Assembly: GCA_036570185.1 (NCBI GenBank)
Contig: DATCPH010000076.1
Location: 2,322 to 66,321, forward strand
Direction of reading: 5' to 3'
DNA: 64,000 nucleotides
Source of the DNA: Candidatus Limnocylindrales bacterium
GTDB taxonomy: Bacteria > Chloroflexota > Limnocylindria > Limnocylindrales > CSP1-4
In this document: one piece after another, positions 60,001 to 64,000 of the stretch
Layout: each line of letters opens with the position of its first letter
Numbering within the stretch: the first letter of the stretch is position 1
Program-made: the position numbers

Positions 60001-63000
60001 GCTGCAACGACGAAGTGGAGGACGTTGTCGAACGGATTCTCGAGGTTGGCGAGCCCGAACGTGTTGGGCGACGCATTACCCGAGACGACCAGTCCGTACA
60101 CCGCGAAGAAGAGCGCGATGACCCCGACCAGGATCACGATCCAGCGGTAGTAGGGACGGAGCGCGCTGTTGAGGCCGGGGACGTACACGGCTGCCAGGGC
60201 GATGATGCCGAGGCCGGTGTGCGCCACGTTCTCGCCACTGTCCAGATAAAAGCTGGGATATGCCGACGCGCTGCTCAGGAACGCGAAGCCGGCGAGCCCG
60301 AGGATGAGCAGTACCGCTCCGCCGACGATCAGGAACATGCGCAGGGTGAAGAACGACGCCATCGACATCCGGATCTCCCTCTTCGAAACTGACCGATCGG
60401 TCCAACCGACCTGTCTGGGCGGATGGAAAACGCAATGTCGCCTACCGGCGACCACACCCTCTTCCTGCGCATCCCTCCTCTAACCCTACCGGGCGGCTCG
60501 CCCGCTGAAGCATTGGCCGCTCGTCAACGCGACGCGAGCCTCCCGAGGCGCCCATTCCTGAAGCCATTCGAAGCTCAACCGTCCATACGCACCCCGATCC
60601 CGGATGGTTTGACGGCCTTCCGCGACGGTCGTACGCTCGGCGCCCGTGTCTTCCAACCCCGCGTCCTTCGCCCCAGAGACTCTTTCCCATCGCCCGTCAA
60701 CCCTCGCCGAGCTGCGTGCATCGGGCTGGCGGCGCCGAACGGTCAAGGAGGAGCTCCGGGCCAATCTGCTCGCCCGGCTCGGCGAGAGCGAGGCCGTCTT
60801 TCCAGGGATCGTCGGCTTCGAGGAGACGGTGGTGCCCGCCGTCGAGAACGCCATCCTGGCCGGCCAGGACATCGTCTTCCTCGGCGAACGCGGTCAGGCC
60901 AAGACGCGGATGGCGCGGCTTCTCGTGGGCCTCCTTGACGAGTGGCTTCCGACCGTGCGCGGCGGCGAGCTGAACGACGATCCCACGGCGCCGATCAGCC
61001 CCTCCGCGCGGGTCATCGTCGCCGAGCATGGCGAGGCGACGCCCATCGACTGGCTGCCGAGGGACCGGCGCTATGCCGAGAAGCTCGCGACCCCCGACAT
61101 CACGATTGCCGACCTCATCGGGGAGGTCGACCCGGTCCGCGTCGCCGAGGGCCGCTACCTGTCGGACGAGTTAACCCTCCATTACGGTCTTGTTCCGCGG
61201 TCCAATCGCGGCATCTTCGCGATCAATGAGCTGCCCGACCTCGCCGAGCGCATCCAGGTTGGACTGCTCAACATCCTCGAAGAGCGGGACGTCCAGATCC
61301 GCGGCTTCCAGATCCGGCTGCCCCTTGACCTGCTGGTCGTGGCGTCGGCCAATCCGGAGGACTACACGTCGCGGGGCCGGATCATCACGCCACTGAAGGA
61401 CCGTCTCGGCTCGGAGATCCGAACCCATTATCCGAGGACGCTGGAGCACGAGATCCAGATCGTCCGCCAGGAGAAGCAGCGCTTCGAACCCGACGAGGGG
61501 ATCCCATCCGTGGCGGTGCCGGACTTCATGGAGGAACTCGTCGCCGAGCTCACTCACCTCGCCCGACGCTCGCCGGAGATCAGCCAACGCTCGGGAGTGA
61601 GCGTCCGGGTCTCGGTCGCCAACATGGAGGTGCTCGAGGCGGCAGCTCTCAAGCGTGCTGTCCGGCTGGGGGAGGCCACCGCGGCTCCCCGCGTCTCGGA
61701 TCTCGGGGCCGTCGTCGCGTCGACCGTCGGCAAGGTCGAGCTCGAGACCGCCGGCGATGACGTGCCCGAGGAACGCGTCGTGGAGCGCCTGATCACCAAG
61801 GCCGTCTTCGCGACCTTCGGCGGGCGGCTCGCTCTCGACGAGCTCGACGACGTCGTGGAGGCCTTCGAGGACGGTCTCATTGTTGAGACCGGCGAACGAA
61901 CCGCATCGCGCGAATACGTCCGGTGGCTGCACGAGATCCCGGGTCTGCCTTCGGCCGTGCGACAGCTGGGAATCGTTGAAGGTGCGGGCGTCAGCGACGG
62001 CAACGACGCGTCCGATCCCGCGGTGATTGCCTCCGCCGTGGAATTCATCCTCGAAGGCCTGCACCTGTCGCGCCGGATCAACAAGGATCGGGCGGCTTCG
62101 GGCAGCGTCTACCGCCGATGAGGCTCCCCATGGCCACGGCAGCGAGCGTCCCTTCACGGGCCCGGGTACGTTCGCGGGCGCGGGGCATTTCGTGACGTTC
62201 TGGACGCCGGATCGGCGCGATCTCGGGGACCTGCCCGGCGGAGCGGTCGCCCGGGAGGGCGCCCTGGCTCGCCGCGCGCGGTACTCCCGCTGGGACGGCA
62301 GCCAGGCCATTCCCGACTTCGACGCCGACGAGCTGCTTGACGCGCTGGCCGACGACGTGATGGCGGAAGGCGACATGGCTGAGGCACTGCGGCGGCTGCT
62401 GGAGCGTGGCCGGCGCTCGGACGATCCGACGCGGTCCGACCTGGCGGGCTTGCGCGACCTGATGGATCGACTCTCCGAGCGGCGCAGGGAGCTCCTCGAC
62501 CGCTACCAGCTCGGCGACGTGCTCGCGGACATTCGCAGCGAGCTCGATGAGATCGTCCGCGAGGAGCGATCCGGGCTGGGGCGCAGGCTCGCCCGGGGGT
62601 CGGATCCGCCCGAATCCGCGCCTGGCGCTGACGCCCCCGCGCCCGGCGCCGAGGCCCCCGATCCGAAGCTCTCGAAGATGCTCCGTGACGCGGCCGCGCG
62701 CCGGATGGACCAGCTCGATGCCCTGCCGGCCGACGTTGGAGATCGGATCCGAGGGCTCCAGCAGTACGACTTCATGGAGCCCGTCGCTCGCGAGCGATTC
62801 GACGACCTCGTCGGCCGCCTCCAGAAACAGGTCCTCGACCAGTACGTGAGCGGCCTTTCCGAGGCCATCCAGGGAATGACTCCGGAGGACCTGACGGCGA
62901 ACCGCGAGATGGTCCGCGATTTGAACCACCTCCTCGGGGAGCGCCTCGCCGGACGCGACCCCGATGCCTCCGAGTTTCTGGCCAGGCATGGACGCTTCTT

Positions 63001-64000
63001 TCCCGGGGCCCAGACCCTCGACGACGTCATCGAGCAGCTGGCCGAGCGCATGGCTGCGATGCAGTCCCTGCTGCGCTCGATGACCGCGGCCCAGCGGGCG
63101 GAGCTCCAGTCGATGATGGACGCCCTCCTGCGGGACGACCGCCTTCGCTGGGACCTGGCCCAGCTCGCGGCGACCCTCGACCAGCTCTTGCCGGGCGGGC
63201 TCGGTGAGCGCTTCCGGTTCGGCGGCGACGAACCCCTCGGGATTGACGGCGCCCTTGAGCAGATCGGGCGCCTCCAGGCCCTGGACTCGCTCGAGGATGC
63301 GTTGGGTGATGTCGAGGGGCCGGGCGACTTGGAGACCATCGACCGCGAGCAGGTCCGTGACCTCCTCGGCGACGAGGGCGTCCGCGATCTCCAGGCGCTC
63401 GATCGCCTGGCCGAGCAGCTCGAGCGGGCAGGCTATCTCCAGCGGCGCGGAGAGCGCCTGGAACTGACCCCCAGGGGGAGCCGCCGCATCGGTCAGAAAG
63501 TCCTGGACGACCTCTTCGCCCGCCTTCGCCGGGACGCCTTCGGCGGCCACCGGCTCGATCGCGGAGGACGAGGCGGCGAGCGCGACGAGACCTCCAAGCC
63601 GTACGAGTTCGGCGATCCCTTCCACCTCGATCTGCGACGGACCATGTCGAACGCGCTGATCCGCGAAGAAAACGCCCCGGGCCGGCGGGCGACCGCCGCC
63701 GTCAAGCTGCGACCAGATGACTTCGAGGTCTACCGGACCGAGCAGCTGACCTCGACGGCGACGGTCCTGCTCCTCGACATGAGCCGGTCGATGCTCCTGC
63801 GGGGCTGCTTCCTGGCCGCCAAGAAGGTCGCCGTTGCCCTCGACACGCTCATTCGGACCCAGTTTCCCCGCGACCACCTGGGCGTCATCGGCTTTGCCTA
63901 CTACGCGCGAGAGCTCCGCCCGGAATCGCTGCCGGAGCTCACCTGGCACGGCTACGAATACGGGACCAACCTCCAGCACGGCCTCCTGCTGGCGCGCCGG

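What the first reader, a model, noticed from the sequence alone, without database searches (positions are those of the whole stretch)
60646..64000. ChlI-like AAA+ ATPase with a deviant Walker A (GERGQAKT) paired with an edge-truncated vWA protein (Rv0958/Rv0959-like), function unknown
The ATPase aligns with Mg-chelatase BchI/ChlI through its N-terminal region ('VFPGIVGFEETVVPAVENAILAGQDIVFLGERGQAKTRMARLL'). However, the second Gly and the Ser of GDRGTGKST are replaced, giving G-E-R-G-Q-A-K-T. That implies altered or lost nucleotide handling.

The downstream partner is missing from the ORF track because it has no stop in the window. It has a long helical, acidic N-terminal region and ends in a canonical MIDAS ('LLLDMSRSM'). 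This mirrors the BchI/BchD split but in a non-photosynthetic context; conserved actinobacterial pairs of this type have no assigned function.

A 280-bp leader lies upstream. The convergent DUF4383 gene and a degenerate CpaF-like gene sit just upstream.
Basis: partly seen in the sequence, partly recalled or inferred. Interest (0 to 1): 0.55.

Follow-up and report, generated by a model that had tools for sequence, protein, structure and literature searches.

The report
Uncharacterised chelatase-like ATPase with vWA partner
This is a real two-gene unit: a ring-motor ATPase distantly related to the magnesium-chelatase motor, plus a metal-dependent "sticky" adaptor protein. It belongs to a very large, conserved family of unknown function (Rv0958/Rv0959 type), and its odd ATP-site residues are the family's normal signature, not a defect of this genome.

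Summary
The ORF at 60646-62121 (+) encodes a 491-aa AAA+ ATPase with Walker A GERGQAKT. The next ORF starts at GTG 62192 and runs off the window. On the source contig it is a 711-aa protein with an acidic helical N-terminal region and a C-terminal vWA domain with a complete MIDAS.

The interpretation needs three corrections.
1. The Ala in the P-loop is a family hallmark: 120/120 nearest homologues and 76/80 reference genomes have it. Lys, Thr, the catalytic Glu, sensor 1, the Arg finger and sensor 2 are all conserved, so nucleotide handling may be altered but is very unlikely to be lost.
2. The organism is a Chloroflexota bacterium (Ca. Limnocylindrales), not an actinobacterium.
3. The "280-bp leader" is an ordinary divergent intergenic region.

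The pair fails the curated Mg-chelatase cut-offs, and no CobN/BchH-type gene is linked to it. Most likely it is a MoxR/vWA-style or BchI/BchD-style remodelling machine whose client is encoded elsewhere. In Chloroflexota the upstream "degenerate CpaF-like" gene usually sits in the same operon, so it may be a third component.

It is a new member of a catalogued but uncharacterised family. Interest is moderate.

The parts
60646..62121 (+). AAA+ ATPase gene (491 aa, 53.8 kDa), Rv0958-type. It is a distant sister of the Mg-chelatase I subunit.
60883..60906 (+). Walker A / P-loop GERGQAKT (residues 80-87). Ala85 (GCC, 60898-60900) replaces the usual Gly before the Lys.
   Evidence: Invariant in 120/120 nearest homologues. 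In 76 of 80 reference genomes the residue is Ala; in 4 it is Gly. Among diverse cluster representatives the pattern is G[EL]RGQ[AG]K[TS].
61213..61230 (+). Walker B IFAINE (residues 190-195). Asn194 replaces the canonical Asp; the catalytic Glu195 is kept.
   Evidence: Aligned to 'ILYVDE' of ChlI. The NE pair is present in 80/80 reference genomes and in 38/42 diverse sequences, including some fragmentary ones.
61351..61608 (+). The rest of the catalytic set: sensor-1 Asn236 (61351-61353), Asp252-Arg253 Arg-finger pair (Arg at 61402-61404), and sensor-2 Arg321 (61606-61608).
   Evidence: Positions. They align to the 'GNPEE' and 'LLDRFG' motifs of ChlI. All are invariant in A1 and conserved in at least 35 of 42 diverse members.
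62192..64000 (+). Partner gene, truncated by the window edge (602 of 711 codons). Domains: acidic helical N-terminal region (residues 45-412), a winged-helix-like hairpin (about 394-430), a linker, and a vWA domain from about residue 520.
63776..63967 (+). MIDAS residues inside the window: D529-x-S531-x-S533 (63776-63790) and T592 (63965-63967). The fifth residue, D620, lies 49 nt beyond the window end.
   Evidence: All five are invariant in the 60-sequence alignment A2. D620 is seen in P0271.
60369..60645 (.). Divergent intergenic region between DUF4383 (minus strand) and the ATPase gene; the presumed promoter region. No evidence that it is a structured leader.
   Evidence: No Rfam match at E<=1. 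No consensus promoter found. RNA fold z-score -0.75. It is 94% identical to the 97%-related locus L001, which is too close to be informative. By eye, TTGACG-N17-TACGCT at 60608-60636 would place the transcription start next to the GTG (inference only).
58989..59840 (+). Probable third component, specific to Chloroflexota: a 283-aa truncated, degenerate secretion-ATPase-like (GspE/FlaI-type) P-loop protein.
   Evidence: PDB GspE 2oap E 2.7e-7. FlaI NF058587 38.5 bits against a cut-off of 550. It lies upstream on the same strand in 28 of 73 reference loci, all Chloroflexota. It sits 8-10 nt from the ATPase start in 3 of 3 long contigs found by searching with it. In this window the two genes are separated by the antisense DUF4383 gene.

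Best explanation
The two genes encode a two-component protein-remodelling machine of the AAA+/vWA kind. A ring-forming ATPase from the chelatase branch of the helix-2-insert AAA+ superclade (Rv0958 type) works with one dedicated adaptor (Rv0959 type).

By analogy with NorQ/NorD, CbbQ/CbbO, RavA/ViaA and BchI/BchD:
- The adaptor's MIDAS site captures an acidic residue of a client protein.
- Its large acidic helical domain provides client specificity.
- The ATPase transmits force to the adaptor. This may go through the short, invariant beta-hairpin that directly follows the MIDAS Asp620 strand (a candidate pore 'finger').
- The client is thereby remodelled, for example for cofactor insertion or for complex assembly or disassembly.

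The client is encoded elsewhere in the genome. The ATP site is functional but non-canonical (P-loop ...Q-A-K-T, Walker B ...N-E). I infer slower or more switch-like turnover, not loss of activity.

Shown: the homology, the domain architecture, the motif conservation and the gene pairing. Inferred: hexamer formation, the adaptor mechanism, the kinetics, and the existence and nature of the client.
For: Homology and fold:
- The ATPase is homologous to ChlI/BchI along the whole AAA+ module.
- Structurally it falls in the MoxR/MCM/dynein/BchI/RavA/CbbQ superclade.

Catalytic residues: the full set apart from the two substitutions is conserved across 36-97% identity. Ala and Gly swap independently in scattered lineages, which implies the two are functionally equivalent.

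Partner:
- It has a vWA fold with an invariant DxSxS...T...D MIDAS.
- Its closest named family is the ChlD-type model TIGR02442.
- An invariant hairpin at residues 625-634 follows the MIDAS strand. This matches the 'finger connected to MIDAS by a single strand' described for AAA+-associated vWA domains (PMC9976466, PMC13036017).

Gene pairing:
- The partner lies directly downstream in 53 of 65 reference loci that have enough flank. The median gap is 58 nt among those 53 (43 nt over all 60 loci that carry the partner), and some genes overlap by 4 nt.
- This holds across Chloroflexota, Actinomycetota, Rokubacteria/Methylomirabilota and Binatia.
- Divergence of the ATPase and of the partner from the window's copies is tightly correlated across loci (r = 0.93 over 60 loci).

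The general mechanism of AAA+/vWA couples is summarised in PMC7159879.
Against: - No client was identified. No third gene is conserved across phyla within +/-10 kb.
- In 12 of 65 loci no partner lies within 10 kb.
- A divergent actinobacterial paralogue has a vWA-less partner, so the vWA is not obligatory across the wider superfamily.
- The structure models are mediocre: ATPase pLDDT 69.7 with the core at residues 145-262 below 50, and partner pLDDT 66.6. The candidate 'finger' is short and has low confidence.
- No biochemical data exist for any family member. In Ras, an Ala at the equivalent P-loop position (G15A) strongly lowers nucleotide affinity (my own knowledge), so impaired binding cannot be excluded.
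Confidence: 0.6

Rival explanations
1. It is a genuine class-I metal chelatase motor (I and D subunits). It would insert Mg or Co into a tetrapyrrole together with a CobN/BchH-type subunit encoded elsewhere, as the database names ('magnesium chelatase') imply.
For: The closest characterised relatives of both proteins are chelatase subunits: TIGR02030, TIGR02031 and TIGR02442 and ChlI/BchI in the PDB. A transposon insertion 49 bp upstream of the M. marinum orthologue appeared once in a B12-resistance screen (PMC11237697).
Against: - Scores are about 35 bits against curated cut-offs of 467-780.
- The partner lacks the AAA-like N-terminal half of BchD/ChlD.
- No CobN/BchH-like ORF was found next to the pair in 81 loci. 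None turned up among the large ORFs of the window that were scanned.
- The family occurs in Dehalococcoidia with genomes of about 1.9 Mb.
- From my own knowledge, M. tuberculosis already has a separate ChlID-type protein (Rv2850c) next to cob genes.
- The B12 hit was a single insertion that was not followed up.
Confidence: 0.1
2. The ATPase is a pseudo-enzyme. The Gly-to-Ala and Asp-to-Asn changes would abolish productive nucleotide turnover, and the protein would act only as a nucleotide-independent scaffold for the vWA protein.
For: Two core positions deviate at once. The G15A change in Ras is known to cripple nucleotide binding (my own knowledge). A canonical MoxR ATPase in the same window keeps GEAGVGKT and LLIDE, so the deviation is not a bias of the genome.
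Against: Dead sites normally decay. Here K86, T87, E195, N236, R253 and R321 are conserved across phyla, including the trans-acting Arg finger and sensor 2, which only matter for hydrolysis in an oligomer. Ala/Gly interchange with no other change also argues that the site is intact.
Confidence: 0.1
3. It is a sigma-54-type transcriptional activator or another nucleic-acid-associated regulator, as some automatic annotations state.
For: Pfam Sigma54_activat scores 22.1 bits against a cut-off of 20.2. One homologue is named 'sigma 54-interacting transcriptional regulator'. The M. smegmatis orthologue MSMEG_5512 was recovered in an RNA-polymerase-directed AP-MS study (PMC7092591).
Against: - The Pfam match covers only 59 of 168 profile positions, the generic stretch from Walker B to sensor 1.
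- There is no GAFTGA loop and no DNA-binding domain was detected.
- FLAG-tagged MSMEG_5512 pulled down no DNA.
- Actinobacteria generally lack sigma-54 (my own knowledge).
Confidence: 0.03
4. It is a vWA-MoxR-type conflict or anti-phage system.
For: AAA+/vWA pairs are the core of the ternary conflict systems described in PMC7159879.
Against: - There are no PADLOC hits for any of the three proteins.
- No effector domain is present.
- Identity between phyla is high, 56-60% for the ATPase, and synteny among close relatives is stable.
- The pair is present in streamlined Dehalococcoidia genomes.
- These are features of a housekeeping gene, not of a fast-evolving defence island.
Confidence: 0.02

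Closest known systems
Rv0958 / Rv0959 of Mycobacterium tuberculosis (MSMEG_5512 and its neighbour in M. smegmatis): 'possible magnesium chelatase' plus a conserved hypothetical vWA protein
   Same: The partner has the same domain set, and the Pfam families are named after Rv0959/Mb0984 (PF27098, PF27532, VWA_2). Gene order is the same, ATPase then partner. Actinomycete members of the ATPase family are confirmed: Micromonospora carries a standard 650-aa partner.
   Different: The window is from Chloroflexota (Ca. Limnocylindrales). Identity to the closest Actinomycetota reference ATPases is about 56-62%. Chloroflexota add an upstream secretion-ATPase-like gene that I did not find in the actinobacterial loci. 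No direct alignment to the Rv0958 sequence itself was possible here.
Mg-chelatase motor BchI/ChlI with BchD/ChlD, and the ChlID-type putative cobaltochelatase TIGR02442
   Same: This is the nearest characterised homologue of both proteins. The AAA+ module is collinear with ChlI, including the inserts between Walker A and Walker B, sensor 1, the DR Arg-finger pair and sensor 2. The partner ends in a vWA/MIDAS domain and has a short acidic Pro/Ala-rich linker (residues 136-158).
   Different: All curated cut-offs are failed by a factor of more than 10. Walker A has Ala and Walker B has Asn. The ATPase carries an extra C-terminal domain of about 140 aa (residues 350-491, well modelled). The partner's N-terminal half is helical instead of AAA-like. 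No H/CobN subunit is linked.
MoxR-class AAA+/vWA chaperone couples (NorQ/NorD, CbbQ/CbbO, RavA/ViaA, CoxD/CoxE)
   Different: Pfam AAA_3 (MoxR) scores 18.8 against a cut-off of 27, and sequence similarity is higher to chelatases. Unlike nor, cbb and cox clusters, no client gene lies in cis. A true CoxD/CoxE pair with canonical Walker motifs sits 13 kb upstream in the same window, so the two systems coexist.

Membership tests
Mg-chelatase I subunit (BchI/ChlI; TIGR02030, PF01078) | Score above the curated family cut-off | tested here: not met
   TIGR02030 scores 34.8 bits against 466.95. PF01078 scores 19.4 against 20.3.
Mg-chelatase I subunit (BchI/ChlI; TIGR02030, PF01078) | Canonical Walker A GxxGxGK[ST] and Walker B hhhhDE | tested here: not met
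   The protein has GERGQAKT and IFAINE, aligned residue for residue to GDRGTGKS and ILYVDE of ChlI.
Mg-chelatase I subunit (BchI/ChlI; TIGR02030, PF01078) | Sensor-1 Asn, D-R Arg-finger pair and sensor-2 Arg in register | tested here: met
   N236 and D252-R253 align to the GNPEE and LLDRFG motifs of ChlI; R321 is assigned as sensor 2 by position and conservation only. All four are conserved family-wide.
Mg/Co chelatase holoenzyme (I + D + H/CobN) | D subunit with an N-terminal AAA-like module, an acidic Pro-rich linker and a C-terminal vWA | tested here: not met
   The partner has the vWA and a short acidic Pro/Ala linker. Its N-terminal 400 aa are all-helical (PF27532), with no AAA match.
Mg/Co chelatase holoenzyme (I + D + H/CobN) | A large porphyrin-binding H/CobN subunit in the genome, often linked | tested here: inconclusive
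   None was found within +/-10 kb in 81 loci, and none among the large window ORFs that were scanned. The rest of the genome is not available.
MoxR AAA+ (PF07726 AAA_3) | Score above the Pfam gathering threshold | tested here: not met
AAA+/vWA chaperone couple (functional class) | AAA+ gene next to a gene for a vWA protein with an intact MIDAS | tested here: met
   The two genes are 71 nt apart in the window. The partner is downstream in 53 of 65 loci. The MIDAS is invariant.
AAA+/vWA chaperone couple (functional class) | Hexameric ring binding one adaptor, with a vWA 'finger' in the pore | not testable with these tools
   Only a monomer model is available. A candidate hairpin at residues 625-634 has low pLDDT. 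This needs a multimer prediction or cryo-EM.
Rv0958/Rv0959 family | Partner carries the Mb0984_helical, Rv0959_3rd and VWA domains | tested here: met
   Precomputed Pfam hits on P0271 and on all 120 listed homologues.
Rv0958/Rv0959 family | ATPase orthologous to Rv0958 itself | not tested
The link is inferred from the partner's Pfam names and from actinomycete family members.
Sigma-54 enhancer-binding proteins (PF00158) | Full-length sigma-54 interaction domain with a GAFTGA loop, plus a DNA-binding domain | tested here: not met
   The match is partial: 59 of 168 positions, 22.1 bits. There is no GAFTGA and no HTH hit.
vWA / MIDAS domain | DxSxS...T...D motif on a vWA fold | tested here: met
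Known anti-phage defence systems (PADLOC) | Match to any defence-system protein model | tested here: not met
   No hit for the ATPase, the partner or the upstream P-loop protein.

The most novel reading that the evidence does not exclude
The Rv0958/Rv0959 family would be a separate, ancient third branch of chelatase-like AAA+/vWA machines. It would be defined by a fixed non-canonical nucleotide site (P-loop Q-A-K-[TS] and Walker B N-E) that makes it a slow, switch-like motor acting on a housekeeping client. That client might be linked to transcription or proteostasis, given the RNAP and ClpC1 interactome hits in M. smegmatis. In Chloroflexota it would work as a three-component machine with a degenerate secretion-ATPase-like subunit. 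I know of no described precedent for that combination.
Probability: 0.3. Interest if true: 0.6.

Novelty: new member of a known kind. Interest (0 to 1): 0.4.

Why it matters
The family is very large. It has more than 8000 clusters at 90% identity and 723 clusters at 50% identity with E<1e-30. It is conserved between phyla, is present in M. tuberculosis, and is routinely mis-labelled 'magnesium chelatase' or 'sigma-54-interacting regulator'.

Three results are useful:
- The odd ATP-site residues are a fixed family signature, together with Walker B Asn. This gives a clean diagnostic motif.
- The same result gives a concrete biochemical question: what an A-K-T / N-E site does to the AAA+ cycle.
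- The pair is not a chelatase by any curated criterion, and in Chloroflexota it has a third partner. Both points correct the annotation and define a tractable target for client-trapping experiments in M. smegmatis.

It does not by itself resolve any long-standing question.

Tried and rejected
- Sequencing error at the Walker A codon: rejected. The Ala is present in 120 of 120 homologues.
- Structured leader or riboswitch in 60369-60645: no Rfam match, fold z-score -0.75, only trivial inverted repeats, and no consensus promoter. A TTGACG-N17-TACGCT seen by eye just before the GTG is too weak to claim.
- Search for a client by conserved neighbourhood: clustering of all ORFs from 81 loci found only lineage-specific synteny. 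This was sdhCAB plus a GH2 gene in Acidimicrobiia, and an ABC transporter, DUF2269 and FBA in Limnocylindria. It found nothing shared across phyla.
- Defence-system reading: no PADLOC hits.
- Literature: 12 papers mention Rv0958 or Rv0959 and none characterises them. The motif strings do not occur in any searched paper.
- The 364-aa gene upstream of the Micromonospora pair is not related to the Chloroflexota upstream gene.
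Full report
WHAT IS THERE

The ORF at 60646-62121 (+, GTG start, 491 aa) is real. Its start is well defined: 60646 is the first in-frame start codon after a stop, and no other start codon precedes the conserved region, which begins at about residue 16. 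The Walker A motif reads G80-E-R-G-Q-A-K-T87 (nt 60883-60906).

A second reading frame, in phase with 62102, stays open to the last base of the window. Its probable start is GTG 62192, 71 nt after the ATPase stop.

A database protein, P0271, is 100% identical over all 602 window-encoded residues. It is 711 aa long and starts at the same GTG. It lies on a 122.6-kb JGI metagenome contig (Ga0120111_1000006) whose gene order matches the window exactly. That contig is evidently the source. It shows that the vWA domain is completed 109 codons beyond the window edge.

THE ATP SITE

HMMER aligns the protein collinearly with Synechocystis ChlI (PDB 8osf, E 1e-9) from before Walker A to beyond the Arg finger. 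In that alignment:
- GERGQAKT lies on GDRGTGKS, so the deviation is Ala85 at the Gly that precedes the Lys.
- Walker B is IFAINE lying on ILYVDE, so the Mg-coordinating Asp is replaced by Asn194.
- Sensor-1 Asn236 and the Asp252-Arg253 Arg-finger pair are aligned and present. Sensor-2 Arg321 is present and conserved but lies beyond that alignment.

These residues are not a peculiarity of this genome:
- All 120 nearest homologues read GERGQAKT, and 116 of them have the hhhhNE Walker B.
- Among representatives of 50%-identity clusters the pattern is G[EL]RGQ[AG]K[TS], with Ala in about 68 and Gly in 14, and Walker B NE is almost universal.
- In 80 reference genomes, 76 have Ala and 4 have Gly. 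The four are in scattered lineages (L011, L014, L053, L083). All 80 have Asn-Glu.
- In a 42-sequence alignment spanning 36-69% identity to the window protein, K86, [TS]87, E195, N236, D252, R253 and R321 remain conserved.

A decayed site would not keep a trans-acting Arg finger and a sensor 2. Repeated Ala/Gly exchange with nothing else changing indicates that the two are functionally equivalent here. I conclude that the site works. It may well be kinetically unusual, because Asn is a weaker Mg ligand, and an Ala at the equivalent Ras position (G15A) lowers nucleotide affinity (my own knowledge).

For contrast, a CoxD-like MoxR ATPase 13 kb upstream in the same window has fully canonical GEAGVGKT and LLIDE motifs.

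WHICH FAMILY

The ATPase fails every curated chelatase threshold:
- TIGR02030 (BchI/ChlI): 34.8 bits against 467.
- TIGR02031 (BchD/ChlD): 36.7 against 500.
- PF01078: 19.4 against 20.3.
- The MoxR model PF07726: 18.8 against 27.

It passes only the generic AAA_5 model and, over 59 residues, Sigma54_activat. That partial match explains the 'sigma-54-interacting' names some pipelines give it. It has no GAFTGA loop.

A profile of the family hits only ChlI, BchI and, weakly, archaeal LonB in the PDB. The AF2 model was of limited quality (pLDDT 69.7, with the core at residues 145-262 below 50). Its best structural matches nevertheless all belong to the helix-2-insert superclade: MoxR 2r44, MCM, dynein, BchI, RavA, CbbQ, ComM and midasin.

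The partner and all 120 of its listed homologues carry the Pfam families PF27532 (Mb0984_helical), PF27098 (Rv0959_3rd) and VWA_2. Its only NCBIfam hit is the ChlD-type model TIGR02442, at 28.9 bits on residues 464-623.

The pair is best described as a sister lineage of the chelatase I/D motor, not a member of it. Unlike BchD, the partner has no AAA-like N-terminal half.

DISTRIBUTION AND ORGANISM

The family is very large:
- ATPase, clusters at 50% identity: 723 at E<1e-30.
- Partner: 3757 homologues.

The closest reference genomes are Ca. Limnocylindrales and other Chloroflexota, at 78% identity. More distant members, at 56-65%, come from Acidimicrobiia, Rubrobacter and other Actinomycetota, Rokubacteria/Methylomirabilota, Binatia, Dormibacterota and Dehalococcoidia. 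The last group includes chromosomes of about 1.9 Mb.

The upstream gene product is 100% identical to a protein from a Ca. Limnocylindrales MAG. The window is therefore from Chloroflexota, not Actinobacteria. Actinomycete members such as Micromonospora and Microlunatus do exist.

GENE NEIGHBOURHOOD

I called ORFs in 81 loci and clustered them all against all. The only partner conserved across phyla is the vWA gene:
- It lies immediately downstream in 53 of the 65 loci with enough flank. The median gap is 43 nt over all loci that carry the partner, with several 4-nt overlaps.
- Twelve loci have no partner within 10 kb.
- Divergence of the ATPase and of the partner from the window's copies is tightly correlated (r = 0.93 over 60 loci).
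- No CobN/BchH-like gene and no recurring candidate client was found. The sdhCAB and GH2 genes next to the pair in Acidimicrobiia, and the ABC transporter, DUF2269 and FBA genes in Limnocylindria, are lineage-level synteny. A Dehalococcoidia chromosome has unrelated neighbours.
- PADLOC finds nothing.

A PROBABLE THIRD COMPONENT IN CHLOROFLEXOTA

- It keeps the Walker A GK[ST] and the His box.
- It lacks the N-terminal domain and the Asp box.
- It has a five-residue deletion that removes the 'IIVGE' Walker B.
- It is nevertheless well conserved.

It lies upstream on the same strand in 28 of 73 reference loci, all Chloroflexota. Three long contigs retrieved by searching with this protein all show the order P-loop gene, then 8-10 nt, then ATPase, then vWA. 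In this window and its closest relatives (L001, L003), an antisense DUF4383 gene has been inserted between the P-loop gene and the ATPase gene. In this genome the ATPase-vWA pair is therefore probably transcribed from the 277-bp divergent intergenic region.

That region has no Rfam match. It folds no better than shuffled sequence (z = -0.75). No consensus promoter was found in it. I found nothing to support a regulatory 'leader'.

HOW IT MOST LIKELY WORKS

By homology and architecture this is an AAA+/vWA remodelling couple. Work on NorQ/NorD shows how such a couple operates (PMC9976466, PMC13036017):
- A MoxR hexamer binds one adaptor.
- A beta-hairpin 'finger' from the vWA domain inserts into the ring pore.
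- The MIDAS binds surface carboxylates of the client.
- ATP hydrolysis remodels the client through the adaptor.

The authors argue that the same applies to CbbO, ViaA, ChlD and midasin. A general statement of the principle is in PMC7159879.

The partner here has the same layout: an N-terminal specificity domain, a linker and a C-terminal vWA. It also has an almost invariant short hairpin (residues 625-634, within the E622-R640 block) directly after the strand that ends in MIDAS Asp620. This is a candidate finger, although it is short and poorly modelled.

I therefore propose a ring ATPase with a non-canonical, probably slow, nucleotide site that drives a MIDAS adaptor acting on a client encoded elsewhere. 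The client is most plausibly a housekeeping protein or complex, given the conservation between phyla and the presence in small genomes.

The only experimental hints concern the mycobacterial orthologue MSMEG_5512 and its relatives, and none of them is a functional assignment:
- It was recovered in an RNAP-directed AP-MS study, but it did not pull down DNA (PMC7092591).
- It is a recurrent ClpC1 interactor (PMC10433963).
- A single transposon insertion upstream of the M. marinum orthologue appeared in a B12-resistance screen (PMC11237697).

VERDICT

The feature is real and correctly located. It is a new member of a catalogued but uncharacterised family. The 'deviant Walker A' is a family signature and is accompanied by a Walker B Asn. 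Loss of nucleotide handling is unlikely. The pair is not a chelatase by any curated test. The leader claim is unsupported. The taxonomic context is Chloroflexota. The possible tripartite operon in Chloroflexota and the fixed A-K-T / N-E site are the two points that merit experimental follow-up. Interest is moderate (0.4).

Noticed in passing
window 58989-59840 (+): A 283-aa truncated, degenerate GspE/FlaI-like P-loop protein. Walker A and the His box are kept. The Asp box and the Walker B 'IIVGE' are missing, and there is no N-terminal domain. It has about 1064 homologues, apparently only in Chloroflexota. In other genomes it is usually the first gene of a three-gene operon with the ATPase and the vWA gene.
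   Followed up: partly
window 46533-47945 (+) and 47961-49376 (+); also 50543-51967 (+): A second, canonical AAA+/vWA pair. The first gene is a MoxR/CoxD-like ATPase (AAA_5/AAA_3; Walker A GEAGVGKT, Walker B LLIDE). The second is a VWA_CoxE protein (205 bits). A gene for a MobA-like NTP transferase fused to a methyltransferase domain lies about 1.2 kb further downstream. This looks like a molybdoenzyme/CODH maturation cluster. The first roughly 160 codons of the ATPase ORF as listed look like over-extension.
   Followed up: partly
window 59955-60368 (-): A DUF4383 membrane-protein gene lies antisense between the P-loop gene and the ATPase gene. This arrangement is seen only in the window and its closest relatives (L001, L003). 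In other Limnocylindria the genes on either side are adjacent, so this is probably a recent insertion that split the operon. The mechanical ORF list extends the gene to 60455, while the gene caller on the source contig uses 60368.
   Followed up: partly
L085 8001-10939 (Microlunatus parietis): A divergent paralogue of the ATPase (37% identity) has a canonical-Gly P-loop (GDRGQGKS). It is followed by a 499-aa partner that has only the Mb0984_helical domain, with no vWA domain and no DxSxS motif. The helical domain, not the vWA, may therefore be the ancestral ATPase-binding part.
   Followed up: no
L057, L042, L079, L077, L038, L071, L055, L080, L074, L084, L053, L073: In 12 of the 65 reference loci with enough flank, the ATPase has no Rv0959-like partner within 10 kb. 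I could not determine whether a partner is encoded elsewhere in those genomes.
   Followed up: partly
window 60608-60636 (+): TTGACG-N17-TACGCT ends 9 nt before the GTG start at 60646, and there is no Shine-Dalgarno-like sequence in between. If this is the promoter, the ATPase mRNA would be leaderless or nearly so. The match is below the threshold of the consensus scan.
   Followed up: no
window 31026-34214 (+) and 34855-39102 (+): A 1062-aa STAND-type LuxR-family regulator (AAA_16, TPR and GerE domains), followed by a 1415-aa carbamoyl-phosphate synthase large chain with an N-terminal extension of about 225 aa. Neither is related to the finding.
   Followed up: no
L044-L083 (Acidimicrobiia loci), upstream of the ATPase: In 14-17 Acidimicrobiia genomes the pair lies divergently next to a GH2-family glycosidase gene and an sdhC-sdhA-sdhB operon. 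This is probably lineage synteny. It is worth noting because RavA-ViaA acts on fumarate reductase in E. coli (PMC10585395).
   Followed up: no
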